59,953 bases of DNA from Bacteroidales bacterium (GTDB taxonomy: Bacteria > Bacteroidota > Bacteroidia > Bacteroidales > 4484-276), in the NCBI GenBank assembly GCA_029934065.1, contig JAOZMX010000002.1:138-60090 (forward strand). The letters run 5' to 3'. Below, piece by piece: positions 13,929-44,900 of this stretch (position 1 is its first letter; each line of letters opens with the position of its first letter). The notes under the pieces were generated by a model that had not been told where the DNA came from, did no database searches, and saw nothing but the letters and a program-made list of their open reading frames with translations. A program made the position numbers and the translations under genes.

Positions 13929-13983
13929 AGAGTTATGGTTTGTATTTTTATTCAATAATTTTTCAACCGGTTCCCCGTAGTGT

Positions 13984-20930: not shown

Positions 20931-20956
20931 AGTGGTAAATTTTTGGGTGATCATAA

Positions 20957-25115: not shown

Positions 25116-28100
25116 ATGAAAACATTATTTACGTCATTCGTTTTGCTGGCATTAACAGCAATTGCGTTACAGGCACACAATCCTTACGGTAAAGGGTTGT
25201 ACGGAAAATCATGCAAAACAACCGAAAGCATGTTGTTTTCGCCTGCGGGGTCGGCCCCAACGGGTGTTTCGTGCATTGACAATCACAACGGAACGGTTGA
25301 TGTCCATTGGACACCGCCGGCAGACCTCACCAACTTTACGGGTTATGCCGTTTACCGCAGCGAGCTGGAAAATTTCGCACCGTCCGCTTATAATCTGATG
25401 ATACAAAACGTTGGCGACACCTTGTGGGAGGACAACACTGTTGAAGACTTTCACACCTATTACTACATCGTTTCGTCCAACTACGGCGGAGGGGAAGAAT
25501 ATTTCTCGGAATGTTCGGCGGGAGTACTTGTCAACAACACAAGTCAAACCACGGTATTGGGATATGCCTATCTTGAAGGCGAGAACAACCATGCCGGCAT
25601 CAAAGTGAGTTTTGTCCCGGAATCCCCGTCGGCGGTTGCCGACAGCATTTACACCAATGCTTTGGGATATTTCGAAACCCACGATCTGATTGCAGGTGTT
25701 TATTCGGTTTGGCTGAGTAAGCCCGGATATCAGTCCACCGTCATTCTTGAGGGAGCAACGGTGATTGACGATCTTGACCTGGGGGAAACGACGATCAACC
25801 GGGTGGGGACGATCGTTTCGGGAAATGTTTCGGGTACCTGGAGCAACTATGTCACCGTCACCGGCGACATCACGGTAGAGGCCGGCGACTCGCTGATTAT
25901 CGAAGCCGGAACAAAGATCAGGTTTCTCGGTTATTACCGTTTTTACATTCACGGCTATGTCGCTGCCGGAGGAACGGAAGCGGATACGATATTGATGACG
26001 TCGGCGCCCGAAAATCAGGTTCAGCAAGCCGGTCAGTGGTTCGGTATTGCCTTTTACGACGACACCGACGACCATTCGTTTTTTAATTATACCAAACTGG
26101 AATATGCCTTCGACGGCGTTTACGCCGAATATTCCGCCCCGGTCTTTACGCATTGTTTCTTCCGGGATTGTAGTTCTCACGCTGCCATTATCAGGCATTA
26201 TGCCAATCCGGAATTTTATTACTGCACCATGGACAATACCAATTACGGATTTTATTTGAACGATCATTGCGATGTTTTGATTGACGGATGTACCATAACA
26301 CACCAATCCAATGACGGGTTCCTTATCGAAAGTAACTGGAATTACGGAAAGATCCGTAACAGCAAGATGATTCAAAACAGCCGTTACGGGATTTTTCTGA
26401 ATAACGATTCGTCACCCGAGATTACCGGAAACCTTTTTGAGCAAAATAATTACGGCATTCGTTTCAAACATAATTGTGATGCCTTTGTTACCGGAAACCG
26501 GTTTATCAACAATTCCTACGGCATTGTTTTCGAGTCGGACAACAATTCGGATGTGGTGATCAGCCGGAATATATTTGCATACAATACAAACGACGGGATT
26601 TACAAAAATGCCAACGATCAAAACCTCACCATCACTTACAATACAATTTGCTGTAACGGGGGTGACGGCATTGAGATCGGAAACAACGGAACCGAATCGG
26701 TAACCAACAACATCATTTACAACAACGGTCAATACGGCCTAAGGAGCAATGCATATATCGAGACTTTCGAAAACAATGATATTTACAACAACGGTGCAGG
26801 TGAGATTTCCAATACGGCAAATCTGCCACTTGAAACCTGGAACTTTGTTTCGGTCAATCCGAATACGGGGGCAAGTTGCGATATTTACCGCAACATATCG
26901 GAAGACCCGTTGTTTGTTTTTTCCGATTCGCTGGATTTTAATTTGACTTACGGCTCAAAATGCACTAACGGAGGCGCTGTGGACATTACCGATCCCGACG
27001 GAACAATTTCCGACATCGGTGCCGTACCTTTCGATCACGGCAATCCGCACAGGATTTTTGTAACGGGTACCGGCAACCAAACCGTTTCATTAATGTGGCA
27101 TGATGTTGACAACGACTCGCTGGTTGCTTATAAAGTTTATTACAAAGTTGCCGGCGGCAAAGACGATTATACTTTCTTCGCATCAACACCTGATACCGCA
27201 ATTGATGTTACGGGACTTACCGACAACACCTTTTACGATTTTACCGTTACGGGAAGCTATGCGGTATATGAATCGGGTTATGCTCCTCCGGTGAGTGAGG
27301 CGCCCGGGATTCCGCAATTGGCTTATGATCCGGGAAGTTATGTTGTAACGATCCCGCAATCGGAAGACTCGGCGGTGGAGAATTTAACGCTGACCAACAA
27401 CGGTACGCGAGACCTTTCGGTAAGTTTTCCGTTTGCCAACAGCCACGCTGCTTATGCTGTTTTCGACGGAAGCGGCGATTATGTAACCTACGGGAATCCG
27501 CCACAACTTCAGGGAATGGATGCGCTCACGCTGGAATGCTGGGTTTACATGGAAGGAAACAACACTTGTTCATTCGTGAGCCGTAATCATCGTTATTATG
27601 AATTGAGTTACGACAGTTATTGGCACAGGCTGCGTTTTGTTAAAGGCTATGCCAACTCGGGAAATATATCAACACAGAACTGGCTGACAAACCTGCATAT
27701 CAATACGAATCAATGGTATCATATTGCCGTTGCATGGGAAGGAAACGTCGTTAAATTATATGCCGACGGTGAGCAAATTTGGGAAACCGATGATGCCGTG
27801 GCAGCCGAAATCCCACCCTACCGGTGGTACACCTTTGATCTCGGAAGAAGAGGTGGCGAAAACGGCTATTATCTCAACGGAAGGATTGCGGAAGTCAGGC
27901 TATGGAACATTGCCCGTACCGGAGAAGAGATCAGACAAAATATGTTCATGTCGCTTTCGGGCAACGAAGAGGGCCTTGCAGGATACTGGCCTTTACAGGA
28001 AGATTATAACGACCACTCGGTTTACGGTGCAACACCGACGGTTTATGGAGAGACACATTTCGGCCAGGGAACTCACCCCGCTTTTGTTTATTACACCGTA

Positions 28101-29828
28101 CCGCAAAGCAATTACCTCATCAATCCCGGACAAAGTGAAGTTGTCCCGCTGACATTTTACAACAGGGATGATATGACGTCGGTATTTTTCACCACTTCCT
28201 TCAGCAGCAACGATAATTCCCTTCCCCGGGCCGATATCGATGTTTTCCTTCAATACGGAACTCCCATACCAACCACGCCGGTCTATTTCGATCCCGTCGA
28301 TCCTACCGGAAAACCTTACACCATTGTGATAAAAGATGCCGAAATCGACGGCGAGACCATCGTAACGGGCGATGAGATCGGCGTGTTCGACGGCAATTTA
28401 TGCGTGGGCGCCGGCATTTTCGACGGTACCTTCAACTTTGCGATCACCGCCTGGGAAAGCGATCCCGGACAGGGTTTGGCGGGCTTCACGGCAGGGCACA
28501 ACATGGTCTTCAGAATTTACGACGCTTCCGTCGATCTGGAAACCAACATTGCCGAAGAGACCTATTTCATCGGCGACGACACCTTCGGCTACGGCACTTT
28601 TTCGGCACTCTCGCTCGAAGCATCGGTATTTAACTTCCAAAACATCTCCGTCACCGGCGGGCAATACAATCTGATTTCGTTCAACTTGCTGCCCCGCTAC
28701 CCCGACGCATGGGATGTGTTCGGCGGATTGGAAAATCTGCAGATCGTGTACAACGACGACGGGGGTATGCTGATCCCGCAATACAACATCAACACCATCG
28801 GCGACATTAACTTTCTGGACGGATTTTACCTTTTCACCGATACCGGCGTCACCTTATCCTACGAAGGCACACGTGTGCATGTGGAAGACTGGGGCATCAC
28901 CCTTGCGCCAAGCAAATGGAATTACATTTCGGTGTTGAGCCAAAATCCCGTGGCGGTCGAAGATGTTTTTTCCGGACTGGAAAATACAATTGATATCGTG
29001 CAGTCGGCATCGGGCGAATCATGGATTCCCTCACTGGGCATCAATACCCTTGGAGATATGCAACCCGGCCGGGGCTACAAAGTTGCTTTGGATGTGGATA
29101 CGGCGGTAACATTTTATTATCCCGCCGGATCGAAAAACACTGCATCACAGCCTTCCCCCGGTCGTCCCGAGGCAACGGCTCCCGTTGACAACACCTTTTT
29201 CGAATCTGTGGAAACAGGATTACCGTGGGCTGTCGTACTAACGGTTAAATCACCACAGGAAACGCCCGGGTATTTGCTGCCCGGTGACGAGATCGGCCTG
29301 TTCGACGGAAACCTTTGTGTCGGAGCAGCCGTGTATCAGGGCGGAGAGCAGTTGCTGATCACCGCATGGGAAAAGGACGACATGCAGAATCTGCCGGGAT
29401 TTACTCCCGGGAATACACTGTCCGCCAGGGTTCACAAGCCGGCCGCAGCACAGTCCGTCATGCTTCGTGTTGCGGATTATTCGGGCAACAGGCCTCTTTT
29501 CGGCCAGAGCAATTACGGCAACTTTGTCCTCGAAACCCTTCCCATCGTTGAAGATCCGTTTAAATTCGGCATCATCCCCAATCCTTTCAAAGAGACCACC
29601 ACCGTAATTTTTGATTTGCATGAAGACGATTTGGTAAAAGTGAATGTCTTCGACGGTTCCGGAAGGCTTGTCAAATTGCTGACCGACCAAAGATATGCTG
29701 CCGATGAGCACCGTTTAACCTGGGACGGAACCGACATGTACGGCAAAAAACTATGCCCCGGCATCTATTTCGTCACGGCCGAAACCACTCACGGTGTTTA
29801 CATCCGGAAAGCAGTGATCCTGAAATAA
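25116..29828 (+). CDS. Giant secreted T9SS cargo protein. Order: FN3-like, carboxypeptidase-regulatory-like, parallel beta-helix (PbH1) repeats, FN3-like, Ig-like domain with nested LamG, shared cassette, T9SS CTD
   Basis: 1570-codon ORF with ATG start and signal peptide MKTLFTSFVLLALTAIALQA. FN3-like: GTVDVHWTPPADLTNFTGYAVYRS and VSLMWHDVDNDSLVAYKVYYKV. PbH1-like repeats at ~25830-26990: NSRYGIFLNNDSSPEITGNLFEQNNYGIRFKHNCDAFVTGNRFINNSYGIVFES...NNIIYNNGQYGLRS. LamG-like domain ends in GRIAEVRLWNIARTGEEIRQNM. Confidence 0.9.
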   Translation: MKTLFTSFVLLALTAIALQAHNPYGKGLYGKSCKTTESMLFSPAGSAPTGVSCIDNHNGTVDVHWTPPADLTNFTGYAVYRSELENFAPSAYNLMIQNVGDTLWEDNTVEDFHTYYYIVSSNYGGGEEYFSECSAGVLVNNTSQTTVLGYAYLEGENNHAGIKVSFVPESPSAVADSIYTNALGYFETHDLIAGVYSVWLSKPGYQSTVILEGATVIDDLDLGETTINRVGTIVSGNVSGTWSNYVTVTGDITVEAGDSLIIEAGTKIRFLGYYRFYIHGYVAAGGTEADTILMTSAPENQVQQAGQWFGIAFYDDTDDHSFFNYTKLEYAFDGVYAEYSAPVFTHCFFRDCSSHAAIIRHYANPEFYYCTMDNTNYGFYLNDHCDVLIDGCTITHQSNDGFLIESNWNYGKIRNSKMIQNSRYGIFLNNDSSPEITGNLFEQNNYGIRFKHNCDAFVTGNRFINNSYGIVFESDNNSDVVISRNIFAYNTNDGIYKNANDQNLTITYNTICCNGGDGIEIGNNGTESVTNNIIYNNGQYGLRSNAYIETFENNDIYNNGAGEISNTANLPLETWNFVSVNPNTGASCDIYRNISEDPLFVFSDSLDFNLTYGSKCTNGGAVDITDPDGTISDIGAVPFDHGNPHRIFVTGTGNQTVSLMWHDVDNDSLVAYKVYYKVAGGKDDYTFFASTPDTAIDVTGLTDNTFYDFTVTGSYAVYESGYAPPVSEAPGIPQLAYDPGSYVVTIPQSEDSAVENLTLTNNGTRDLSVSFPFANSHAAYAVFDGSGDYVTYGNPPQLQGMDALTLECWVYMEGNNTCSFVSRNHRYYELSYDSYWHRLRFVKGYANSGNISTQNWLTNLHINTNQWYHIAVAWEGNVVKLYADGEQIWETDDAVAAEIPPYRWYTFDLGRRGGENGYYLNGRIAEVRLWNIARTGEEIRQNMFMSLSGNEEGLAGYWPLQEDYNDHSVYGATPTVYGETHFGQGTHPAFVYYTVPQSNYLINPGQSEVVPLTFYNRDDMTSVFFTTSFSSNDNSLPRADIDVFLQYGTPIPTTPVYFDPVDPTGKPYTIVIKDAEIDGETIVTGDEIGVFDGNLCVGAGIFDGTFNFAITAWESDPGQGLAGFTAGHNMVFRIYDASVDLETNIAEETYFIGDDTFGYGTFSALSLEASVFNFQNISVTGGQYNLISFNLLPRYPDAWDVFGGLENLQIVYNDDGGMLIPQYNINTIGDINFLDGFYLFTDTGVTLSYEGTRVHVEDWGITLAPSKWNYISVLSQNPVAVEDVFSGLENTIDIVQSASGESWIPSLGINTLGDMQPGRGYKVALDVDTAVTFYYPAGSKNTASQPSPGRPEATAPVDNTFFESVETGLPWAVVLTVKSPQETPGYLLPGDEIGLFDGNLCVGAAVYQGGEQLLITAWEKDDMQNLPGFTPGNTLSARVHKPAAAQSVMLRVADYSGNRPLFGQSNYGNFVLETLPIVEDPFKFGIIPNPFKETTTVIFDLHEDDLVKVNVFDGSGRLVKLLTDQRYAADEHRLTWDGTDMYGKKLCPGIYFVTAETTHGVYIRKAVILK
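27450..28005 (+). other. LamG/concanavalin-A-like domain nested within an Ig-like (choice-of-anchor-D-like) domain spanning 27325-28258
   Basis: Host-domain first half: YVVTIPQSEDSAVENLTLTNNGTRDLSVSF. Then the LamG-like insert (AVFDGSGDYVTYG...WYHIAVAWEGNVVKLYADG...GRIAEVRLWNIARTGEEI...GYWPLQED). Then the host second half: FVYYTVPQSNYLINPGQSEVVPLTFYN...SSNDNSLPRADIDVFLQYG. Confidence 0.6.
29560..29825 (+). other. T9SS type-A C-terminal sorting domain of the 1570-codon product
   Basis: FKFGIIPNPFKETTTVIFDLHEDDLVKVNVFDGSGRLVKLL...GIYFVTAETTHGVYIRKAVILK fits the Por-secretion-tail pattern. Confidence 0.75.
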
Positions 29829-29913: not shown

Positions 29914-32900
29914 ATGGATACAAAAAATAAAACCGGATATTTCAGGCACTTCGGAATAATCGTTTTGCTGATCGCCTTGCTTAACATTCAAGGATTGGTT
30001 ACTGCACAAAACGAACCTTTCGAGCCGGTACCTCCGACAGGTTTGCCATACGGCATTGTTTTGACCAACCTCAACATCAACGGTGAAACGCTTCCCGTGG
30101 GAACACAAATCGGTGTGTTTGACGGTGAACTGTGCGTCGGCGTCGTTGATTTCGACGGCAGCGACACCCTGAACCTTATTGCCTGGGAGGGCGACACCTC
30201 GCAGAACCTTGCCGGATATACCGCCGGCAATCCCATGTCGTTCAAGTTTCATGTCTTATGGCATTCGGAATATCAAAACTTTGATGCCGAAGCAAATTAT
30301 TCCGTCGGCGACGGCACCTTCGGATACGGAAATTATTCGGCGGTAACATTGTGGGTTACAACCGGTCTGATTCCTCATTGTTGGGTTTCCGATACGTTAT
30401 TGATGTTCAATATGGTTCCCGTTAACCAAAGCAGGAGCCTGCCGGTTGTTTTTCATAACGGGGGAACGGCCAAACTTGCCGTTACCGGCATTGAAAACGG
30501 CGACAGCCATTTCACCTGTTCATCTTCGTCGCTGCTGATTGATCCGGCGGAACAAGATACATTGTGGGTTACCTTCATACCCACCGAAACGATCACCTAT
30601 TCCGATGTGCTCACCATGCAAACCGACGATCCCGATCTCCCCGCATTGTCGATCCCGTTGTACGGGGCGGGCATTCCGCAGGCACAGCCTCATATCGTCG
30701 TGAATCCGGCGGCGCTGCATTTCGGAAGCATTGCCCACGGTACAACCTCCTCATTGATCCTGAACTTGTTCAATAACGGAGATGCAACCCTTGAAATAAC
30801 GGAGATCACATCGTCAAACGATGCTTTTGCGCTTTTCGGAAACACCCCGTTCACTGTCGAACCCGGGAAAAACACCGACATTTCCGTTTTATTCTCTCCC
30901 GCTCAAACGGGCTCTTATTACGGCACCCTCACCATTCAAAACAACGATCATCCGGTGGTTGTCCCCCTTACGGGAACGGCCGCACAAGGTCATTTTTCCT
31001 GTGTGGAGCCCACCGGAAAACCCTATCCCGTTTTGATTGATACCATTATGATGGACGGGTATTTCCCTTCGCCCGAAAACGAGATTGCCGTTTTCGACGG
31101 AACGTTGTGCGTCGGTACGGGAACTTTCATCAGCAGCAACAACGACAAAAGCCTTTCACTTGACGGTGACAACGATTATCTGACCAACGAAAATTCCACC
31201 GAATTCGACCTTCAGCAACTGACCCTCTCGGCATGGGTGTTTTCCGAAAATTTTAACCAAAACGGTTTTATCTTTGAGAAAGGAGCCAAAAACACTCAAT
31301 ACTCATTGTTTTTTCAGGGAGATCAAATCTTTTTCGGTACCAAACCCGAAGGGACATCAGGATATGACAATTTTGCGGTCAATTCCGCTTCGGCGGGAAT
31401 CACCGACGGACAGTGGCATTTTATTACGGCTACCTACGACGGTTTACAGAAAAAAATATATGTGGACGGCACACTCGCCGGCACACAGAACTACAGTCAA
31501 CCCCTTCATACCGGAGAACAGGGTCAGATCATCGGCGCTTACGGTGCCACAGGAGGGCACGGTTATTATTTCAACGGTCTGATCGACGAGGTCAGGGTTT
31601 GGAATGTTGCCCGCACCGGGGAAGAAATCAGGGCGGGTATGCTGTTTTCCCTTCATCCCAACACCCTGGGTTTGGTCGGATACTGGAATTTCGGGGACGG
31701 CAGCATCAACAATCTTGCTTTCGGAGCCACACCTTCGGTATTGCACGGTGATGCCGTTGCCGACGGGGAACAATTCGGCGGCATCTTTTCGGAGATTTTG
31801 ATCACGGCGTGGGAAAAGGACGATGCCCTGGGATTGCCCGGATTTACACCCGGTAACCCCATGAGTTTCAAAATCTGGTGTGATGTTTTCGATACGTGGG
31901 CCGAAACAAATGCCACGGCTGAATTTATTACGGGAAACGGGAATTTCGGCGCCGGACAGATCAGCGTCGTCGATCTCTCGGGCAATGCAGGCATTGCTCC
32001 CCATATGGGGCTCCCGGCAGAAGAGCTTTTTGTCGGTCAGGTGGAGCCCGGCAACACGGCCGTCAATGAATTCACGGTATTCAATACCGGAAACGCTCCG
32101 TTGCACCTGATTGTATCGGAAAATGCCGAAGCCTTCGATGTGTCGGTTTCCAATGCGGTGATAGACCCGGCGGATTCCTTGCAGATCGGGATCACATTTT
32201 CACCCGATGCACCGGGCGGCTACTCCGCAGACATGAAACTTTACAGCAACGATCCCGACAACCCCGTCACGGCTATTCTGCTCAACGGTTTTGCCATCCC
32301 TTCGGGAGAACCCGGCATTGCCACGTCGATGGATCATATCGGTTTTTTCAACGTTGTGGTCGATTCCGTTAAAACATTGTCGTTTTACGTAATCAATACC
32401 GGAACACTGCCATTGACGGTAACGGAAATGAAGACCTCCTGTGCGCAGTTTTCGGTATCTCCCTCCGCATTCACCCTCGAAAACACCAACGATTTGAAAG
32501 AGGTCTTCGTGAGTTTCACCCCCGACGCAAAGGGATTGTTTACCGATACACTGACCATCGTTTCCAACGCACCGGACCATCAACTGGAACTTTTCGGAAC
32601 GGGGTTCGAAAATCATTTCAATCCCGTTGATCCCACGGGAAAACCCTATCCCATCGTGGTGAACGAGACCAATTTGGGGACAACCATCACACCCGGCGAC
32701 GAATTGTCGGTTTTCGACGGAAACACCTGCGTGGGCATGGCGGCGGGAATGGAAGGTTATTTTGGAAAGGCGGCCGTTTTTTCCGCAGGGGCGGATTATA
32801 TCACTGTTGACGAGCCGGGAGAATTCACCGAATTCACCGTTGAATTCTGGCGCAAATCCACCGGCAACGGCATTTCCAACAATCCGCGCATGATCTCCAT

Positions 32901-35900
32901 GTGGAAAACCGCTCCCAACAACAGCTCCGATGATGCCCTCGTCATTGAGCATACCAACAGCAATCAAAATACGGTTACCGTATGGTTTTCGCCCGACGGC
33001 GACAACAAACAGATCGGCGACATCAATCTGTCGCAGCAGCAGTGGCACCATCTTGCTTTTACCTTCGACGGCACAACGGCAAAAGTGTATGCCGACGGCG
33101 AACTGAAAGCTTCGGAAACGTATGCCCCCGATCCCGGATTAACGTTCCACTGTTTGCAGATCGGCGGCGACGAACCCATGAACCGCTATTTCAACGGCCT
33201 GATGGATGAAGTCAGGCTCTGGAATGTGGCGAAGACGGAAGAACAGATCCGCAGCTTGTTCCGTTTCAGGCTTAAGGGCGATGAAGAGGGTCTGACGGGC
33301 TACTGGCCGTTTGACGAAGACATGAACGATCATTCGCCGTTGCAGCATGCCACACAGGCCTTTGGCGATGTTTCGTTGACCGGCGATGTGCCGTTGCTTT
33401 TCAAAAACGGAAATTTAGCATTGACGGCATGGGAAAAGGATGTTGCCAACGGCCTGCCGGGTTTTACCCCAGGCAATCCGATGTCGTTTAAGCTTTGGAC
33501 CGAAATCAACGGCATAGCCTCGGAACTGGATGCCGAACCCGATTACCTTGTGGGGGACGGCACTTTCGGTTACGGACAGCTAACGGTAGTTAATCTGGCC
33601 TTCGGACTGCCGCAGATAGCCGTTGACCCGGAGGAGTTTTTCGTTGCCCTCGAAGAGCCCGATTCCACGGAAGTTGTGTTGCACATTTCCAATCCGGGCG
33701 TTGATGATCTGGGATTTGTAATTTCAAAGGCGCCGGAAAACGGTCAAGCACCGTGGCTTGCCGTGTCGGACACCTCCGGGACGATCGCACCTTCCGCTTC
33801 CACCGAAATCACAGTGAAATTATACTCCGAAGGGCTCAACGACGGCCTTTACGAAACGTCATTGTTGATCACCAACAACACCATCGACCATTCACCCTTT
33901 GCCGTTCCGGTGTCGCTCAACGTTACAGGAAATCCGCAAATCGCCGCCCAACCCGATTCGCTTTGCATGGGTGAAGTTGTTATCGGCGAATCGGGGGAAG
34001 ATACCCTGACGCTCGTTAATATCGGAACGAAAGCGCTTATCATCGACGATATGGCCATTCTGCACAGCGTAACTTCGGGTTTTGATTTTTCGTTACCCGC
34101 AAAAGACTTTCCCGTTGTTTTGCCTCCCGGAGGCAATCTAAAAGTTATCCTACTGTTTGCCCCGTCTTCAACGGGCTTCGTTACAGACACCCTTACGGTA
34201 AGCTCCAATGCGGTGAATGACCCCGGGATGCAGGTTATCCTGTCGGGCCGCGGGGTTACTCCTGCCGACATTTACATTCCCGAAACCGTATTTGGTTACA
34301 CCGTTGTCTGCGGTGGTACTTACTCCGATTCTTTGAAAATCCACAACCTCGGACAACAGACTCTTGAGTTTGCCTTGCAAAGCAATGCCGCATGGTTGGA
34401 GGGTTATCCGCAGGAGGCCGTAATACCCGGCGGCGACAGCATCACCGTTCATTTGAATATTTCGGCAGTTGATCTTTACGCCGGAAACTATGAATCCGTG
34501 TTGACCGTAAACTCCAACGACCCCGACGACCCCGTTGCAGAGCTCTTTAGCACACTGACGGTTACCGGCGATCCGGAAATCATCTCCACCGACTATTTTG
34601 ACATGGGTACCGCATACCTCGGCGACACCCTGACCGGTGAATTAGCCGTAGCAAACAACGGCTGCGATACGTTAAAGGTTTTTTCCGTTTCCGTCGAAAG
34701 TCAATATCCGGTATTTATTATTGACAATTCTCCTTTTGCCATCCCTCCGGGTGAGGATAAGCCGTTGCTCATCACTTTTGTTCCGCTCGACATCCGGCAA
34801 TATTCCGCCATTGTTATTCTCAATTCCAACGATCCGGTTACTCCGGAGCTTCAGGTGGTGATCGCGGCAACGGGAGCGGAACATCCCGACATGACCGTAA
34901 CACCTCAAAATTTCGAAATTACCTTGCAATCGGGTGAAAACACGCAGGAACCGTTTACGGTAGAAAACACCGGAGGCGAGTCCCTGATCTATCAGTCGGA
35001 GGTTTCACCCATGAACAGCTACATGCTGAACTTTGACGGCGATGGCGACTACATCAATGTGTTGAACGACAACTCGCTCAACTCCGGAGACGCACTTACC
35101 GTCGAACTGTGGCTCTATCCTTCGGAAAACGCCGATCAGTTCATCCTCGGAAAGGAAAATTCCGTTGAAGGGACGTACCGCTTGCGGATCAACGGCGATC
35201 AACATTACGAATTCAGACTGAACCGGCAGTTTTCGGTTATTTCCAACACACCGGCAACCGCCGACCAGTGGACACATGTTGCCGCCACTTTCGACGGCAG
35301 TACCATGCGTCTGTTCATCAACGGCATTTTGGATGCGGAACAAACCTTCGCCCCCTTCACCATTGAATCGAGCAGCGATAACGTCCGCATCGGAAGGTCT
35401 TACAAATACAAATATTTTAAAGGAAAAATGGATGAAATACGCATCTGGAACATCGCACGCAACGAATCCGAAATTCAGTCGGCCATGGGGCTTACCCTGT
35501 CGGGAGACGATCCGGAACTGATGCTGTATTTTCCTTTTACAAAATCGTCGGGCAGCATTGTCAACGACGCCTCCGCCAACGGCAACAACGGCATTCTTTA
35601 CGGAAACCCGTTCCGTCAGCAGTCAACGGCCCCCTACGACGATTTTCTTTCGCTCATTAACGGCAACGGAAGCGTTGAGCCGGGAGAACAACAGTCCGTA
35701 ATTTTATCCGTCAATTCATCGGGATTCCCGGCAGGCGGTTACCAACGCTCCGTCGTCGTTACCTCCAATTCCGTCAACAATCCTTCGGATACGGTTTCAT
35801 TGGTCGTCAATATCGAAGGATCGGGAATTATCAATCCGGTACCTGCACAACTGACCTTTGACAATATTTTCACGGGACAAACGGATACGCTGATGCTGAC

Positions 35901-38900
35901 ATTGAAAAATACCGGTGCGCTTGCCGTCGAAGTAAATGGTGTTTCATTCAGTGATCCCGATTTTCATACTGTCGATGTTATTGATAAAATCTTTCCCTTT
36001 GCTCAAAAACAATTACGGGTGGTTTTTGCTCCGTCGGTGGTTAAAACCTATGAGGCAACACTCACGTTACTGCTCGAAAATGCAACGTCACCCACTTTGG
36101 AAATCCCGCTCACGGGGCAAGGATTAACACCTCCGGTTCCCGTGTTCACTCCAACGCAAATAGACTTCGGCGATGTGCTTGTCAATAATACGGCCACCGA
36201 AAACGCCGTCCTTTCGAATGACGGAAATGCGCTTCTCGAAGTCTATTCGGCAACATTCGATAACGGGACCTTCCTCACCGACGATTTAATATTGCCTCAA
36301 ACCATCGGGTTTGGCGAGCAGATTGCGTTTCATATTTTCTTTCTTCCTTTGAATTACGAAACCGTCGTCGATCACCTGCTATTCAGTACCAACATGGGTT
36401 TGTTGAGTCTGCCGGTTTCGGGTACCGGTATTCCTCCCGATAACGACCTTTCGGTGATTGCCGTGGAAACTCCGCATGACGGCTGCGGCCTATCCGATAA
36501 TGAGTCCCTCACGATAACGATCAAGAATTTCGGGCAGTTTTCACAAAGTAATTTCAACGTCGGTTTTTCGCTGAACAATGCCGCACCGGTGATCGAAACG
36601 GTGAGCACCACCTTACCATCCGGCGAATCCACCGGATACACTTTTGCGCAAACCCTCGATCTGTCTGTTTTCGGAAATTATAGCATCGAAACTTTTACGT
36701 TGCTTGGCGACGATCAAAATACATGGAACGACACGCTGGCTTACAGTCTATCCAATTATCCTCCCGTAGGGGAAGTAACGGGCCTTTCGCCTGCCGACAG
36801 TTCATTCGGATGTGTCGAACCGGTTACGTTTTCATGGAATGCGGTTGATAATGCTTCCTTTTACGACTTGTATCTGTGGCGTACCAATCAGCAAAAACCC
36901 GAAGAACCGTCCGTGGAAGGATTAACAGCCACCTCTTATACATGGTATGCTTATCTGAACAAAAACTACCTTTACAACTGGCAAATCGTTGCCCGCAACG
37001 AATGTTCGCAGAGCGAGAGCGAGGTATTCGTATTTTCTTTCAACATCTTTTCCGACCTTACCGTACACAACATCGTGATCCCCGATACGGTGCAGGCGGG
37101 AGCAACCGTTGATGTCTCTTTCACCGTAACAAACAACGGTACCGGCGGAACGGGCATCATCCCCTGGAAAGACCGTTTGTATATTTCTCCGTCGCCGGTT
37201 TTTATTCCCGGTGAGGTGCAATTGCTGGCGGAAGTACAGAATGTAAAAGCCCTTTCGCAGGGAGAAAGTTACACCGATACGGTGAGCGTTGCCATAGGGG
37301 AATTGCTCGAAGGAGCCCAATACGTTTTTGTTTTTGCCGATGCGGGCAACATCATTCAGGAAACCGATGAAGAGAACAATCTCGGCGTGTCGCAGGGAAC
37401 AATGGAAGTGCTTTTGCCTCCCTATCCCGACCTGTCGGTTGAAGATGTGCAGTCCCTGACCGGGAATATCACCCCCGGCACCAACACTTCGGTAGGATGG
37501 ATGACGAAAAATATCGGCGATGCTCCGGCAATCGGAGGATGGAGTTGCAAAATATCCCTGGTTTCCGGCGAGCAACGTTTAATTCTCGGATACGTTCAAT
37601 ACACGGACACATTGGAGACGGGCGGTTTCATTACGCAAGCCGGCACTTTTGCCGTGCCCGAATACCCTGCCATGGAAGGAGAGGTGTATTTGGAAGTTGC
37701 CCTTACGCCTTATCCGGGTCTTGTCGAAAAGCCCAACGCCACGGCCAACAACACGGCCTTATCGGCCGAAAGCGTAACCCTTGAAAAACGGCTGTACATC
37801 TCCATTCCGCAACCGGTAATTGAAGAAAATGCCGTCAGCCCGTTGTGGTGCAATGTCTTCAGAAGCGGAAGCCGGGCCGAGGAACTTACCGTTACGCTCA
37901 ATGTTTCGGAAGAAAACAGGTTGATCCTTCCGGAAACGGTCAGCATTCCGGCCGAACAATCCGGTGCGGCATTTGCCGTGTCTCCCGTCAACAACGAATT
38001 GATAGAAGGTGATGTAACGGTGGAAATCGCGGCGCAGGCCGGAGATTACCCCGGCACCGCAGATACGCTGACGATCGTTGACGACGAAATGCCTTCGCTG
38101 AACGTGGAAATTACACCCGATGAGGCTGTTGAAGGAGAAATCGTAGATGTTACGGTAACGCGTGATCTGGTTACCTCGCAAGCATTGACGGTTTATCTCG
38201 TCGCCGGCATGTCTGATCAGTTGGAGTTGCCCGGTTCGGTTGAGATTCAGGGAAATCAGGCTTCGGCAACCATTGAGGTCCCTGTGATTGATGACAATGT
38301 CCCCGAACTCACCGTTGAGGTAACCGTAAGTGCTTTGCTGACGGGATACCTCACCGGAACGGACTCATTAACCATATCGGATGACGATATTCCCGCAATT
38401 TCATTCACGATCAATCCCGATACCGTCTCCGAAGCGGGCGGGCCCTATGCCTCATGGGGAACGATACAGTTGCAGGAGCCGGCCGACGGCACGCTGACGA
38501 TCCAACTGTCGGCAGACCCGCCCGGTGATATTTTCTTCCCGCAAATGATTACCATTGCCAACGGCATGACACAAAAGCAATTCAACATCGGAGCCGTGGA
38601 TAACGGTGTACTTGACGGTGACCGGGTAGTAGAACTTACGGCATCGGTATTTATCGAATCATGCAGTTGCGGTGCTCCTCCAACGAGTGGCGGCACAACA
38701 ACAAAAGAAATTACCGTACTTGACAACGACGGCCCTTCGCTTGCCGTCTCGGCGGAACCTTTTGTCGTTCCCGAAAACCTTGTGAATGCAGGGATACTGA
38801 CCGTTACACGAAATACCAACGGCGGTGATGCCGTGGAAATCACATTGCAAAACAATTCCCCCGACGAAATATCCTTGCCGGCAACGGCGGTGATTCCCGA

Positions 38901-41900
38901 AGGTGAAGATCAGGTGGAGGTACCTTTCGGCACAATTGACGACGATATTGAAGACGGCGACCAGATCGTGATGATCACCGTTTCAGCCGAAGGCTATGGA
39001 AGCGGTACCTGCTGGGTGATGGTTACCGACCTAAACCTGCCGGATTATACCATCCCGGATATTTCGCTTTCGCAAAACGACATTCTGATCAACGAAACCA
39101 TCACGGTAAACCTGTTCGTGAAAAATACCGGCTTTGCCGTTGCGCCCAACGGAGCCACTGTGAATATTTACCGTTCCGACGACACCATTCCCGACGATGA
39201 TGATCTGCTGCTCGATTCGCAAATCACACAAGACGGTCTTGATATCGGCGACTCGCTGGAAATTTCCTCGGAGATCACTTTTACCGGCGAAGTAGGGGAT
39301 TTTTACATCATTGCCACGGTAAACGAAAATAACAACCGCCCCGAATTGTTGAGTATCAACAACACTTCACTTGCATTGCCCCTCAGCGTTCAACCGGATT
39401 ATACGGCTACGGTAACCGTTGAGGAAGAGGTGTTCAACGGCCGTACACCCATTCCTATCCACGGCGTTACGCAAACGGTAAACAAAGCCCCCGTACCCGA
39501 TAAACCGGTTGATGTTTACATCATCGTTGACGGTGTGCGCAGGGTTCATCAGGTGATCAGCGACGAAAACGGAGAATTTGAATACCTCTTTATCCCTGTC
39601 AACGGCGAAGCAGGTAAGTATGATGTGGGTGCCTGCTATCCCGGCCAGGGCCTCACCGATGCCCAGGATGAGTTTACCATCCTCGGAGCCAAACATACCG
39701 AAACGGGCGATATTCTTTGGAACCTAACACTCGGGGAAACACAGCAGAAATTTCTTGAAATCAAAAATTTTACCGATTTACCGCTGCATAATCTTCAGGT
39801 GGAAGTCGAATGGGCTCCGGCGGGTTGTACGGTGAATTTCGTGCCGGTGGTCAATCTTCCCGGCAACGGTTATGCCACGATAAATTACAGCGTTGAAGCA
39901 ACGGCGGTAACACAAGGCGACCAGTATCAGCAGGTGAAACTATCTCTTGTTTCGGACGAAGGTACCCGTTTTGAATTCGTCACCTGGTTTTATGCCACGG
40001 CGCCCATAGGAAATCTCAAGCTTGACCCGGTGGTTTTGAATGCCACCATGGTACAAAATGAAATCAACTACGTTGAGTTTGAAGTGCAAAACAACGGACT
40101 GGACACCACCGGGCCGGTGAGCATCCTGTTACCGGAGCTCGACTGGCTGTCGCCGGCAAGCCCCGACACCATCCCGTCGCTGCAGCCGGGCGAAAGTGCC
40201 ACGGTAACGTTGAGCCTCACCCCGGGCGACGACTTGCAGCTCAACAATCCCGTTACCGGGCAACTGGTGCTTACCGGAACCAACAGCAACAGTGTGTTGT
40301 TGCCGTTCAGCTTCGAGCCCATTTCGCTCGAAACAGGCAACCTGCTGGTGGATGTGGTGGACGAGTACACCTACAACACGACGGCTGCACCTCACGTGGA
40401 GGGAGCTACCGTCATACTCAAGCATCCATACACCGGCGAAATTATTGCCGAAGGACAATCCGATGAAAACGGCCATTTCCTTGCCGAGGATATCAACGAA
40501 GGGTATTACGTCCTGAAAGTGGAAGCCCCGCAGCACATCGGATACCAGGATTATATCTACATCGACAAAGGCATTGTCAACGAGGTGGTAACATTTATTA
40601 CCTTTCAGGCCATCACCTACACATGGAATGTTGTTCCTACCGAAATCGAAGACCAATACGCCGTAACGCTCATCACACAGTTCGAGACCAATGTACCGGC
40701 TCCGGTGGTGATCATGGACATGCCCGACACGCTACCTCATCTTGAGCAAGGCGAATATTTCCCCTTTCTGGTAAATCTTACCAATGTGGGTTTGATCACC
40801 GCCGAGGATGTGGAAATCACTTTTCCGGATGATCCCGAATACATGTTTACCACAACGGTGGATCAGTTCGACATTTTGCCCAATCAAACCATACAGGTTC
40901 CTGTTGTGATGGAGGTTCGCCCGCCGGAGAAATCCGGTGACGGCAAGAAACTGGTTTGCGCCGATATCACCATTGCCAAATACCAGTTCGATTGTGGCCC
41001 CGACGGTAAACTGAGGGTTGTTGCCGCATGGAGTTTTTATCTCGGCAGGGTTTGCGGTGAATCCGGGACGCCGAGCAACATTTTTTCGCAACTGCCGAGT
41101 TTCGGCCCGGGCGGCCCCGGTGGAGGAGGGGGAAGCCTTAACAGCCCAGGCTGGTCTCCGGAGTATCAGGAACCGACACCTTATCAGGGAACCTACATTG
41201 CATGCGACACCTGTCTGGTGGATGCGATGAACTGCCTGCTGGATTGTATCAACCCGATCCCCGGGCCGTTGGATTGCGGTGCCGATCTGCTATCCAACAA
41301 ATTGAATTTACAAAATTATATTTCATGTATCCTCTCCGTGGTAGATGCTTTAACCGACGGAAAACTGGGCTGTTTCTACTGCATCGGAACCACCGCAGGT
41401 TGTTTCCTTACGGTACCGTTTCCCTCACCTCCCATTATTCCCATGGGAAACAAAGGATACTCGGAGCTTTCGGAAATGGAACAAATCTTTAACGACATGA
41501 TCTGGCTTAACAAGGGATACGGAGCCCTGGCCGATTATACCGTTGAAATTCTCGGAAACGAAAGTTTTCTCGAAAAAGAATACCTCGGCGAGTTCAGAGA
41601 TTCGGTTGCCGTATTTCTGGATGAAAAGATACCGGTTGATACGGTAACCCGCAACAATCTGGTGGTTGCCTTCGAAGATACCGACATCAGCGAGGAAGAA
41701 ATTCTGGACTTTGTTGATCATTGGAATACTACCATGGAAGCATGGAGCAACGGTATTTATTCTCCCACGCAGGAATATCCCGATATTGCTGATACTTTGC
41801 TATTGCATGAATACCAGTTGAATTACGATTCAACCATTCAATACACGCATACACGCGGTTATCCTTCGTTCGATTCGCTCTACAATGCCGATATGGTCAT

Positions 41901-44900
41901 CATGAGAGCTTATCTTGATAATGAATCCCAATCGGTATGTGCCACGGTAACGGTAGAGTTTTCGCAAACGCTGACCATGACCCGTGAGGCTTTCGAGGGA
42001 ACCCTGACCATTTTCAACGGACACGAAACCGATGCCATGCAAAACATCCAGCTTAACCTTGAAGTACGCGACGAAGAAGGGATCATCCGGAACGATCTCT
42101 TCCAGATCAATACCTTGTTGCTGGATGAAATAACGGCCATAGACGGCTCGGGGATTCTGGACGCCCAAACGGAAGGAAGTGTGGTGATACAATTTATCCC
42201 CGAACGCAGTGCCGCACCCACCGTGCCGAAGTATTATTCTTTCGGCGGAACACTGACCTATCTGGATCCTTTTACGGGAGAAATCTACGAACAACCGCTC
42301 TTTCCGGTAACCCTTCAGGTGAATCCCAGTCCGAATCTTTACATCGACTGTTTCATGCAACGCAATATCTTCGGCGACGATGCCCTCACCGAGCCCATCG
42401 AGCCCATGATTCCGGCGGAGCTTGCCGTGATGATCGACAATCAGGGCATGGGCACGGCCAAAAATGTTTCGCTCGAATCGGCACAACCGGTCATCATCGA
42501 CAACGACAAGGGCCTGTTGATCGACTTTGAGATCATCGGGTCGAACCTCGGCGGGCAACCCATGCAACTGGGCCTTTACAATGTTCAGTTCGGGGATATT
42601 CCCGGCGGTGAAACGGCTGTAGGCCAATGGTGGTTCACCAGCACTTTGCTCGGACATTTCGTCTCGTATGAAGCATCGGTAAATCATCTCGACAGCTACG
42701 GCAACCCCGACCTGAGTCTTGTGAGCGGCATACAGATTCATGAGTTGATCAAAAGTATCCGTGTTTACGGTGCGCTCGACGATAGCATCAACGATTTTCT
42801 CGTGAACGACATACCCGACGCAAATGATATTCCCGATGCTTTGTATTATTCCAACGGAGCCGTAGCCGAAGTTTTTGAGGCCGGGAGTATTCAGGCCGAC
42901 GGCGTGGTAACGCTCAACGATACGATCATTCAGATCACGGTGACGCCTTCCGAAGCAGGTTGGAACTACGCTTTGACGGATGATCCCGGAAACGGTTTGT
43001 ACAGGTTGGTGAGCTGCACACGCAGTGACGGGCAGGTGATTCCCGAAGAAAACATCTGGCTTACCTACTGCACCATTCCCGACGGTGATGAGCCGATTTA
43101 TGAAAACAAGCTTCATTTTGTGGATAATTTCGAAGCCACCGATTCGGGTGGTGCGGAACCGGCAGATTATACGGTAGTGTTTGAAGCCATCGATCAGGAT
43201 GTGCCCAAAGTGGTTGCCGTACTCGGTGTTCCCGAAGAGCCGGCTGATTATCCGGTGGAAAATGTTCAGGTCGTCTTCAGCGAACCCATCGAACCCACGA
43301 CGTTCGATTATCAGGACATGGTACTGAAAAATCAGGGAGGTCCCAATCTGATGGATACGCTTGTGACGGTAACTCCTGTTAACGATTCCGTCTTCGATGT
43401 GGACATCTCCGACAAAACTTCCAAAAACGGCTATTACACCCTTACCGTTCAGGCTTCGGGTGTGGCTGACCTCAGCGGAAACTACGGCAACGAAGGATTG
43501 CAGGTGTCGTGGATACAAGCCATTCAGGCGCCGGCCATTGATTATTTCTTCGGTGTTCCCGAAGAACCCGGCGAGCCGATAGATACGATCCTCGTATTGT
43601 TCAACATGCCCATTTACGAAATCACCTTTACCACCGATCAGCTGGAACTGACCGGCACCGACGGAAATCCGCTTCCCACAGGCAGCCTTGTGATCACTTC
43701 CGAAAGCCCCAACAGCGTGCTCTTCAAGATCAGCGGACTGGAAGCGCTTTGCGGTGATGACGGCACTTATCTGTTGACGGTAAAAGTAACGGAGATACAA
43801 GGAGTAACGGGATTGGCCGGTGTGCTTGACCAATCGGTAGGATGGACGGTGTGTCAAATCCCGTTTCCCACGGCTTTTGCAGGCAATGATGCTACCGTAT
43901 GTGCCGGAGCCGCTTATCCGCTCAACGGTACGGCGGAAAATGTAAGCTCGGTTTTATGGACAACTTCCGGAACGGGTACTTTCGACAACGAACAATCGTT
44001 GACGGCAGTTTATACTCCCGGAACGGAAGATTTGGCTGCAGGGTCTGTTGAAATTACGCTCAACGCACTGCCGCTCAATGACTGTGCGCCTTCCGCAACT
44101 TCATCCGTCACCCTTTCATTCGAAAACAATACAACTGTCAATGCCGGTGAAGATGCTGAAGTTTGCGAGAACGGAACGCATACTCTGTTCGGCATGGTAA
44201 CCAATGCAGAAAGTTTCGAATGGATCACCTCGGGCGACGGCATCTTTGATGATAACGGTATATTGACACCGGAATATTCTCCCGGCCCCTATGATGTTGA
44301 AACGGGATTTGCAATATTGTCGCTGGTGGCATATCCCGCAAGTCCGTGTACGATGCCCGACACTTCGTCGATAATGTTGACTGTAAAACACCTTCCCGAA
44401 GCTTCGGTAACGCCGGATACGACCATTTGTGAGGACGAAACACTTCAGCTTGATGCACAGGCATCCGACTACAGTTCATCGTTCTGGATTACCTTCGGAG
44501 ATGGTACATTCAGCTCGCAGCAGGTTCTAAATCCGGTTTATACGCCGGGTGCAGAGGATTTGCAAAAAGGCTCGGTATTTTTGGTGCTTGTTGTTTTGCC
44601 CGAAAGTCCCTGTTACACAAATGTCATTGTTCCGGCTCATGTTGCCTTTGCAAGGTTGCCAGAGGTGTATGCCGGGGAGGATTCTCCCGCAAGCGAATAC
44701 CAGCCCTATCAGCTTTCGGGCTTTGTGGATAATGCACTCTCTTTTATCTGGACAACTCTGGGCGACGGTGTTTTCGACGACCCCAACCGGATTGATGCGG
44801 TTTATTCCTTCGGCACCAACGACCTGACGGCGGGAGAAGTAACACTGACCCTGACGGCAGAACCGCTGAGCCCTTGCGTAAGTTCGGTGTCGGATGATAT

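What the first reader, a model, noticed from the sequence alone, without database searches (positions are those of the whole stretch)
30994..33606. Every LamG-like domain in the locus is a nested insertion inside another beta-sandwich domain
Seen in sequence: copy G1 of the GVFDG...TAWE module (30016-30357) is contiguous (GVFDGELCVGVVDFDGSDTLNLIAWEGD). Copies G2 (30994-31983) and G3 (32614-33606) are split at exactly that loop by ~215-aa LamG-like inserts (31144-31788 and 32752-33408). The module then resumes at ILITAWEKDD and LALTAWEKDV.

The other two LamG-like domains are flanked in the same way by the two halves of a choice-of-anchor-D-like Ig domain. These are 35020-35540 in the giant gene and 27450-28005 in the 1570-codon gene.

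Four of four LamG domains being domain-in-domain insertions is an unusual and systematic architecture.

Inference: the host domains may act as rigid stalks that present the lectin-like LamG units.
Basis: partly seen in the sequence, partly recalled or inferred. Interest (0 to 1): 0.7.

Follow-up and report, generated by a model that had tools for sequence, protein, structure and literature searches.

The report
LamG domains nested inside split host domains
Two huge secreted surface proteins carry four lectin-like LamG domains, each spliced into a loop of another small all-beta domain; this "split domain" design is already known from giant RTX adhesins, but here it uses a different secretion system and a host domain family that is in no database I could search.

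Summary
A profile built from three uninterrupted GVFDG…TAWE modules matches G2 and G3 as two complementary pieces on either side of a LamG. AlphaFold2 gives the same seven strands for intact G1 and for G2. In G2 the LamG sits in the β3–β4 hairpin.

The other two LamGs interrupt an Ig-like domain. With the LamG removed, the giant's flanks match Pfam PF22544 above threshold in one stretch across the junction. The p1570 flanks match only below threshold.

No other LamG is found in the window.

The architecture is inherited. Among 150 related proteins there are 22 split modules, each with one LamG at the same hairpin, and 23 to about 38 Ig-hosted LamGs.

It is not new in principle. RTX adhesins project ligand-binding domains from "split domains" (PMC12077191).

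New here:
- T9SS cargo rather than T1SS.
- LamG as the projected unit.
- A host module with 3,193 cluster representatives but no Pfam, NCBIfam, PDB or Foldseek match.
- Module-hosted LamGs far more divergent than their hosts.

Binding function is inferred, not shown.

The parts
25116..29828 (+). Gene p1570 (1570 aa). Order of domains: signal peptide, beta-helix, fn3, Ig with nested LamG, module A, two unannotated repeats, module B, T9SS C-terminal domain.
   Evidence: ORF; translation; Pfam
27306..27443 (+). p1570 host Ig, N-terminal half (aa 731-776)
   Evidence: The spliced sequence matches PF22544 only weakly (18.1 bits).
27444..28073 (+). p1570 LamG insert with linkers (aa 777-986)
   Evidence: Pfam Laminin_G_3 at aa 784-939; own HMM at aa 775-980
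28074..28259 (+). p1570 host Ig, C-terminal half (aa 987-1048)
28269..28625 (+). Intact GVFDG…TAWE module A (p1570 aa 1052-1170)
   Evidence: 202.5 bits
29181..29540 (+). Intact module B (p1570 aa 1356-1475), directly upstream of the T9SS C-terminal domain
29914..46077 (+). Giant gene (5387 aa), with a signal peptide and a T9SS type A C-terminal domain
30007..30360 (+). Intact module G1 (giant aa 32-149)
   Evidence: AlphaFold2 gives pLDDT 95.7, pTM 0.89 and seven strands.
30988..31125 (+). G2 host module, N-terminal half (aa 359-404, strands β1-β3)
   Evidence: HMM positions 5-57; model strands 16-27, 36-41, 44-50
31126..31794 (+). G2 LamG insert with linkers of about 7-8 residues (aa 405-627)
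   Evidence: Pfam; own HMM; Foldseek matches to the PAPP-A LamG domain and to pentraxins
31795..31983 (+). G2 host module, C-terminal half (aa 628-690, strands β4-β7)
   Evidence: (model strands 274-280, 297-304, 307-319, 330-337)
32611..32742 (+). G3 host module, N-terminal half (aa 900-943)
   Evidence: HMM positions 5-49, E 1.7e-14
32743..33411 (+). G3 LamG insert (aa 944-1166). It is an orphan subtype: its best relative is only 31-33% identical.
33412..33606 (+). G3 host module, C-terminal half (aa 1167-1231)
   Evidence: HMM positions 56-116, E 3.5e-17
34879..35010 (+). Giant host Ig, N-terminal half (aa 1656-1699)
35011..35631 (+). Giant third LamG with linker (aa 1700-1906)
   Evidence: Pfam Laminin_G_3 at aa 1708-1855; own HMM at aa 1698-1887
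35632..35823 (+). Giant host Ig, C-terminal half (aa 1907-1970)
   Evidence: The spliced sequence matches PF22544 at 32.4 bits in one stretch across the junction.
45493..45789 (+). Divergent module copy (giant aa 5194-5292), just upstream of the T9SS C-terminal domain
   Evidence: 17.9 bits, E 2.4e-7

Best explanation
Both genes encode very large cell-surface proteins exported by the type IX secretion system. Each is a string of Ig-like and other all-beta domains.

Four LamG (Laminin_G_3, concanavalin-A-like) domains are spliced into surface loops of other domains:
- Two sit in the β3-β4 hairpin of a seven-stranded, previously undescribed module (GVFDG…TAWE).
- Two sit in a loop near the middle of a HYDIN/ASH-type Ig domain.

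In each case the host chain leaves, builds a complete LamG, and returns through a short linker to finish the host fold. The LamG therefore hangs sideways off the chain of domains.

This is the same design as the "split domain plus ligand-binding domain" units of RTX adhesins. The most likely role is to display lectin-like binding units on a fibre-like surface protein.

Shown: the nested topology and its conservation in relatives. Inferred: the sideways projection, the rigidity, and any ligand binding.
For: **Topology**
- Complementary HMM halves flank each LamG.
- Intact G1 and split G2 have the same seven-strand pattern. Confidence is high across both G2 halves (pLDDT 89.5, pTM 0.80 for all 341 residues).
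- The spliced Ig flanks match a full-length Pfam Ig model in one stretch. So do 18 of 25 spliced flanks when orthologues are included.
- The [module-Ig-Ig] unit repeats with periods of 327 and 541 aa. The difference of 214 aa is the size of the LamG.

**Conservation**
- 22 split modules in 14 distinct cluster representatives, each with one LamG at HMM position about 50-57.
- 23 Ig-hosted LamGs with both halves detected and about 15 more with one half, beyond the two in the window.
- A partial homologue annotated Candidatus Marinimicrobia has the same nested arrangement.

**Surface location**
- Signal peptides and T9SS type A C-terminal domains.

**LamG as the binding unit**
- Foldseek matches to the PAPP-A LamG domain and to pentraxins.
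- The inserts diverge faster than their hosts: 29% against 44% mean identity, with host above insert in 270 of 276 pairs.

**Known analogue**
Against: - No atomic coordinates were available. Contact between the two host halves, and the orientation of the LamG, are inferred from pLDDT, pTM and the strand pattern only.
- No structure was predicted for the Ig-hosted LamGs.
- The p1570 spliced Ig matches Pfam only below threshold.
- No ligand is known, and no binding-site residues were examined.
- The host module occurs alone with a dockerin (P0001), so it may have a function of its own rather than being only a stalk.
- p1570 carries a beta-helix, and the neighbouring genes are glycan-degrading enzymes. 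The proteins could therefore serve substrate capture rather than adhesion.
Confidence: 0.7

Rival explanations
1. The segments that flank each LamG are independent small domains or linkers, not two halves of one fold.
For: No coordinates could be inspected. The p1570 spliced Ig scores below the Pfam threshold.
Against: - The halves map to complementary, non-overlapping parts of the intact-module HMM, with E-values from 6e-13 to 3.5e-17.
- The seven strands are the same in the intact and split copies, and pLDDT is high in both halves.
- The spliced Ig of the giant gives a single Pfam match across the junction.
- The split site is the same in 22 relatives.
Confidence: 0.03
2. The GVFDG…TAWE module is itself a binding domain rather than a passive stalk. 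Module and LamG together form a two-lobed binding unit, or the LamG modulates the module.
For: - The module occurs as the only domain besides a dockerin in P0001, and as the N-terminal domain of P0085.
- Its motifs are strongly conserved: GDEIGVFDG.LCVG, TAWE.D, GFT.GN, GDGTFG.
- One copy sits directly before the T9SS C-terminal domain in both proteins.
Against: - No similarity to any known binding domain.
- 409 intact copies in 150 proteins, often several per protein, look like a repeated building block.
- The host is conserved while the insert varies, which suits a scaffold.
Confidence: 0.2
3. The proteins are not adhesins. They are surface machines for capturing or processing polysaccharide, and the LamGs act like carbohydrate-binding modules that target substrate.
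For: - p1570 has a right-handed beta-helix / NosD region.
- The window also encodes GH31, a sulfatase with an F5/8 type C domain, a BNR/sortilin T9SS protein and an FGGY kinase.
Against: - No catalytic domain was found in the giant over 5387 aa.
- The neighbouring enzymes lie on the other strand or several kb away.
- This rival keeps the same nested-presentation mechanism and differs only in the target.
Confidence: 0.25
4. The split arrangement is an assembly or gene-calling artefact.
For: None found. The window's own proteins are not on record in the public collection.
Against: - The reading frame is uninterrupted over 16 kb.
- The same architecture appears in at least 14 independent cluster representatives that are under 50% identical to one another, and in an NCBI MAG protein.
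Confidence: 0.01

Closest known systems
Split domain plus ligand-binding domain units of RTX adhesins, such as Aeromonas hydrophila AhLap and Vibrio cholerae FrhA (PMC12077191, PMC10865825, bioRxiv 10.1101/2025.09.30.679566; Graham et al. 2024, Proteins 92:933, as cited in those papers)
   Same: - A beta-sandwich domain in a giant surface protein is interrupted by a complete binding-type domain, and the chain returns to finish the host.
- There are several such units per protein.
[quoted passage not shown] The preprint reports 20-56% identity; here the figure is about 29%.
   Different: - Those are T1SS substrates with an N-terminal retention module, BIg extenders and a C-terminal RTX beta-roll. 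These are T9SS cargo with a type A C-terminal domain and no RTX repeats.
- Their projected domains are CBM, PA14, vWFA, peptide-binding or beta-roll types, not LamG.
- Their insertion is after the first strand or before the last two strands. Here it is in the β3-β4 hairpin of a seven-strand module, or mid-domain in an ASH/HYDIN-type Ig.
- One host family here is undescribed.
Fibrillar adhesins: a stalk of tandem repeats plus an adhesive domain (bioRxiv 10.1101/2020.12.07.414375; PMC9210967)
   Same: Long secreted surface proteins built from tandem Ig-like domains with lectin-like units.
   Different: In the classical picture the adhesive domain sits at the tip. Here the candidate adhesive domains are nested laterally within the first about 2000 residues. 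Adhesion is not shown.
LamG / pentraxin fold (PAPP-A LamG domain, PTX3, CRP; Foldseek)
   Same: Same concanavalin-A-like jelly-roll fold (E-values 2.6e-10 to 1e-7). Pfam Laminin_G_3 matches well above threshold.
   Different: - Identity is only 14-20%.
- Among 188 shorter LamG homologues, LamG lies within 60 residues of a protein end in 168 of 226 domains, which would make nesting impossible there. Some of these proteins are partial sequences.
- Here LamG is nested.
Prealbumin/CnaB-like seven-strand sandwiches (pilin CnaB domains, transthyretin; Foldseek)
   Same: The host module is all-beta with seven strands. The weak top matches are all sandwiches of this size.
   Different: No match at E <= 0.001, and query-normalised TM-scores are only 0.27-0.50. 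This does not establish a relationship.

Membership tests
Laminin_G_3 (PF13385), concanavalin-A-like | Pfam match above the gathering score | tested here: met
   279 bits in the giant (three stretches) and 83.1 bits in p1570, against a threshold of 27.6
Laminin_G_3 (PF13385), concanavalin-A-like | Jelly-roll fold similar to solved LamG or pentraxin structures | tested here: met
   Foldseek of the G2 model: PAPP-A, PTX3 and CRP at E 2.6e-10 to 1e-7, with 388 hits at E <= 0.001
HYDIN/CFA65/VesB-like Ig (PF22544), for the host of LamG 3 and 4 | The two flanks joined together match the full-length model above the gathering score | tested here: met
   Giant: 32.4 bits against 25.5, residues 9-100 matching profile positions 7-96 of 100, across the junction at 44/45. 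18 of 25 spliced flanks (window plus orthologues) match at E <= 0.01.
HYDIN/CFA65/VesB-like Ig (PF22544), for the host of LamG 3 and 4 | The same test for the p1570 host | tested here: inconclusive
   18.1 bits, below the threshold of 25.5, although the match spans the junction
Choice-of-anchor D (NCBIfam NF012200) | The host Ig matches the NCBIfam model | tested here: not met
   The spliced hosts give no match even at E <= 10. The intact Ig pair at giant aa 151-359 scores 93.8 bits.
RTX-adhesin split-domain unit | A binding-type domain leaves and re-enters a beta-sandwich host within a giant surface protein | tested here: met
RTX-adhesin split-domain unit | T1SS substrate with RTX nonapeptide beta-roll, retention module and BIg extenders | tested here: not met
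   Pfam finds a T9SS Por_Secre_tail and no RTX or haemolysin-type repeats
RTX-adhesin split-domain unit | The N and C termini of the projected domain lie next to each other, with the binding site distal to the junction | not testable with these tools
   Model coordinates are not returned. Only short linkers of about 7-8 residues can be read.
T9SS type A cargo | C-terminal sorting domain (TIGR04183 / PF18962) plus an N-terminal signal peptide | tested here: met
   Giant: TIGR04183 at 61.1 bits against 23. p1570: PF18962 at 24.6 bits (below the 27-bit threshold) plus FlgD_ig at 32.3 bits. Signal peptides are visible.
Fibrillar adhesin | A demonstrated adhesive domain and surface attachment | not testable with these tools
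   Needs binding and localisation experiments
Any described family, for the GVFDG…TAWE module | A match in Pfam, NCBIfam, PDB sequences or PDB/BFVD folds | tested here: not met
   - Pfam: none of 89 members matches consistently.
- NCBIfam: none.
- PDB by sequence: best E 0.24.
- Foldseek: no hit at E <= 0.001 in PDB or BFVD.

The most novel reading that the evidence does not exclude
The GVFDG…TAWE module may be a new, widespread domain family (3,193 cluster representatives). Its β3-β4 hairpin would serve as a dedicated docking site where LamG cassettes are exchanged between lineages. That would let T9SS giant surface proteins re-tool their binding specificity while the scaffold stays constant.

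The hint is the mismatch between host and insert. G3's host halves are 60-64% identical to their orthologues, but its LamG is only 27-29% identical to theirs and has no relative above 33%. G2's LamG is 50-52% identical to LamGs in unrelated small proteins.
Probability: 0.3. Interest if true: 0.6.

Novelty: new variant of a known kind. Interest (0 to 1): 0.42.

Why it matters
The split-domain rule was worked out on T1SS RTX adhesins of Proteobacteria. Finding it in T9SS megaproteins of an uncultured relative of Bacteroidota or Marinimicrobia suggests it is a general solution for displaying binding units sideways on fibre-like surface proteins.

It gives a practical rule for these mostly unannotated giants: look for interrupted host domains to find the candidate ligand-binding units.

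It also defines a large host domain family with no entry in Pfam or NCBIfam and no structural neighbour. That family deserves a database entry.

Finally, it points to four specific constructs for binding studies: giant aa 355-695, 895-1235 and 1650-1975, and p1570 aa 728-1050.

Tried and rejected
- **Word-index homologue search with one intact module:** one hit only. The exhaustive profile search was needed to reach the family.
- **MAFFT of nested and intact copies together:** it aligned the C-halves of the intact modules onto the LamG. I did not use this alignment and built separate ones instead (A3, A4).
- **jackhmmer from the intact Ig at aa 1232-1336:** found only itself. I replaced it with spliced-flank searches.
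- **The search for related loci with G2 against genome contigs:** no relative found.
- **MetH used for taxonomy:** best identity only 66-67%, to Bacteroidales MAGs. The taxon stays unresolved. One partial nested homologue is labelled Candidatus Marinimicrobia.
- **The look-up of encoding contigs for p1570:** not on record.
- **Domain-insertion survey (PMC13114784):** LamG and the Ig families are mentioned in neither the text nor the supplements.
- **Foldseek of the nested model:** returned only LamG-type hits, so it could not test how the host halves pack.
- **Assembly artefact and independent flanks:** both rejected (see the rival explanations).


Full report
**What is in the window.**
Two adjacent genes on the + strand encode p1570 (25116-29828) and a 5387-aa giant (29914-46077). 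Both start with a signal peptide. Both end in a type IX secretion sorting domain (Por_Secre_tail / TIGR04183).

Pfam finds Laminin_G_3 three times in the first 2000 residues of the giant and once in p1570. It finds none in the giant's C-terminal half or in the eight other large ORFs. A LamG HMM built from the four copies and run over every six-frame ORF of at least 60 aa finds only those four. "Four of four" is the right count for this window.

**The module and its split copies.**
The GVFDG…TAWE module is contiguous in giant aa 32-149 (G1) and in p1570 aa 1052-1170 and 1356-1475. An HMM of these three copies (120 positions) matches the other two copies in pieces:
- G2: positions 5-57 at aa 359-411 and about 55-116 at aa 626-688.
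- G3: positions 5-49 at aa 900-943 and 56-116 at aa 1167-1228.
- Domain E-values run from 6e-13 to 3.5e-17.

The pieces are complementary and the gap holds the LamG. The starts of G1, G2 and G3 (aa 32, 359, 900) give periods of 327 and 541 aa for a [module-Ig-Ig] unit. The difference of 214 aa is the size of the insert. A seventh, divergent copy lies at giant aa 5194-5292.

**Structure prediction.**
G2 (aa 355-695) was modelled with an alignment of 24 nested units. It gave mean pLDDT 89.5 and pTM 0.80. Intact G1 was modelled with 89 intact homologues and gave pLDDT 95.7 and pTM 0.89.

| Model | Strands |
|---|---|
| G1 | 18-28, 38-43, 46-52, 58-65, 82-89, 92-104, 114-121 |
| G2, before the insert | 16-27, 36-41, 44-50 |
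| G2, after the insert | 274-280, 297-304, 307-319, 330-337 |

These are the same seven strands. The LamG replaces the five-residue β3-β4 turn and is joined by linkers of about 7-8 residues. The host residues on both sides are predicted with high confidence, and pTM is high for the whole unit. This argues that the halves pack into one domain.

I could not inspect coordinates, so this step is strong inference rather than direct observation. Foldseek of the nested model returns the PAPP-A LamG domain and pentraxins, which confirms the fold of the insert.

**The Ig-hosted LamGs.**
With the LamG removed, the giant's flanks (aa 1656-1699 + 1907-1975) align across the junction to the intact Ig at aa 1233-1340. 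They match Pfam PF22544 (HYDIN/CFA65/VesB-like Ig) at 32.4 bits, against a threshold of 25.5. The match is one stretch, residues 9-100, with the junction at 44/45.

The p1570 flanks behave the same way but score only 18.1 bits. Of 25 spliced flank pairs (23 of them from orthologues), 18 match PF22544 at E <= 0.01, with a best E of 7e-12.

The host Ig does not match NCBIfam choice-of-anchor D. The intact Ig pair at aa 151-359 does.

**Relatives.**
The word-indexed search found almost nothing with the module alone. The exhaustive profile search found 3,193 cluster representatives at E <= 0.001 and 1,334 at E <= 1e-10.

In the best 150 representatives:
- There are 409 intact module matches and 22 split pairs.
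- Every split pair has exactly one LamG in a gap of 172-232 aa.
- Every split is at HMM position about 50-57.

A census of the 78 LamGs in those proteins plus the window gives:

| Context | Count |
|---|---|
| Inside a module, both halves detected | 22 |
| Inside a module, one half detected | 4 |
| Inside an Ig, both halves detected | 25 |
| Inside an Ig, one half detected | 15 |
| Other | 12 |

About eleven of the "other" LamGs start at aa 21-37, directly after the signal peptide of orthologues of the giant. Those are free N-terminal LamGs, and they are absent here. Nesting is an inherited family trait, not a peculiarity of this window, and it is not obligatory.

A partial protein annotated Candidatus Marinimicrobia has the same nested module. 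Among 188 shorter LamG homologues, LamG lies within 60 residues of an end in 168 of 226 domains. Some of those proteins are partial sequences.

**Host versus insert evolution.**
Across the 24 nested units, the host halves average 44% identity and the inserts 29%. The host is the more conserved of the two in 270 of 276 pairs.

The pairs fall into two kinds:
- Concordant: G2 against P0138a, 61% host and 59% insert.
- Discordant: G3 against P0138b, 64% host and 27% insert; G3 against P0135b, 60% and 29%.

G3's LamG has no relative above 33%. G2's LamG is 50-52% identical to LamGs of unrelated small proteins. The Ig-hosted LamGs are 42-61% identical among orthologues. This fits either rapid divergence or replacement of LamG cassettes at the module hairpin. 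I did not test the two against each other.

**What the host module is.**
No described family fits it:
- Pfam: nothing consistent in 89 members.
- NCBIfam: no match.
- PDB by sequence: best E 0.24.
- Foldseek on a pLDDT-95.7 model: no hit at E <= 0.001 in PDB or BFVD. Only weak resemblance to CnaB- or transthyretin-like sandwiches, with query-normalised TM-scores of 0.27-0.50.

It is all-beta with seven strands. "Beta-sandwich" is reasonable but is not backed by a significant structural match. The module also occurs as the only domain besides a dockerin in P0001. It sits directly before the T9SS C-terminal domain in both window proteins.

**Comparison with what is known.**
Domain insertion is common, at about 20% of multidomain proteins (PMC13114784, abstract).

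[quoted passage not shown] The adjacent N and C termini of the projected domain are described as a typical feature (PMC12077191; see also PMC10865825). Projected domains are reported as highly variable even within one protein (bioRxiv 10.1101/2025.09.30.679566).

The present case works like that but is not a member of that family:
- It is T9SS cargo, not T1SS.
- It has no RTX repeats.
- The projected domain is LamG.
- The insertion sites differ.
- One host family is new.

LamG, T9SS and concanavalin are not mentioned in those papers where I searched.

**Verdict.**
The structural interpretation is supported. "Unusual" is overstated. The stalk-and-present function is the best reading by analogy, but it is untested. 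Novelty: a new variant of a known kind. Interest is moderate and rests mainly on three things: the extension of the split-domain rule to T9SS megaproteins, the undescribed host family, and the possible exchange of LamG cassettes.

Noticed in passing
window 30007-30360, 28269-28625, 29181-29540 (and the split copies): The GVFDG…TAWE module is a large domain family (3,193 cluster representatives at E <= 0.001). It has no Pfam, NCBIfam or PDB match and no significant Foldseek neighbour, although its AlphaFold2 model reaches pLDDT 95.7.
   Followed up: yes
window 32743-33411 (G3 LamG): The LamG of G3 is an orphan: its best relative is 31-33% identical. Its host halves are 60-64% identical to their orthologues. 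Ig-hosted LamGs are 42-61% conserved among orthologues. This suggests cassette replacement or fast evolution at the module hairpin.
   Followed up: partly
window 30007-33606: There is a supra-repeat of [module-Ig-Ig], starting at giant aa 32, 359 and 900. The periods are 327 and 541 aa. The difference of 214 aa equals the LamG insert.
   Followed up: partly
window 29181-29819 and 45493-46068: In both proteins a module copy sits directly upstream of the T9SS C-terminal sorting domain. In the giant this copy is divergent (17.9 bits).
   Followed up: no
P0001; P0085: Small secreted proteins consist of a signal peptide plus one intact module, followed by a dockerin (P0001) or by an unrelated domain of about 170 aa (P0085). 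The module can therefore stand alone.
   Followed up: no
window about 28650-29170 (p1570 aa about 1180-1350): Between modules A and B lie two repeats of about 75 aa (pattern N.IS..P..DVF.GLEN…G..IP..INT.GD) with no Pfam match.
   Followed up: no
Orthologues P0133-P0146, P0163, P0169: Orthologues of the giant carry an extra LamG that is not nested, directly after the signal peptide (start aa 21-37, end about 231-249, before the first module near aa 250). It is missing from the window's giant and from its closest relative, P0129.
   Followed up: partly
window 37714-46074: The C-terminal 2,800 residues of the giant have only six Pfam hits (CARDB, Big_5, NPCBM_assoc, CarboxypepD_reg, PKD_4 and the C-terminal sorting domain). 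Most of this region is unannotated.
   Followed up: no
window 147-3554 (+), 15675-20954 (-), 25116-29828 (+), 29914-46077 (+): Four T9SS-cargo genes lie in one 60-kb window. Near them are GH31 (11499-14045), a sulfatase with an F5/8 type C domain (50205-52280) and an FGGY kinase (13984-15459). The MetH gene is only 66-67% identical to its best match in a collection of one genome per species, a Bacteroidales MAG, so the source lineage is poorly represented there.
   Followed up: partly
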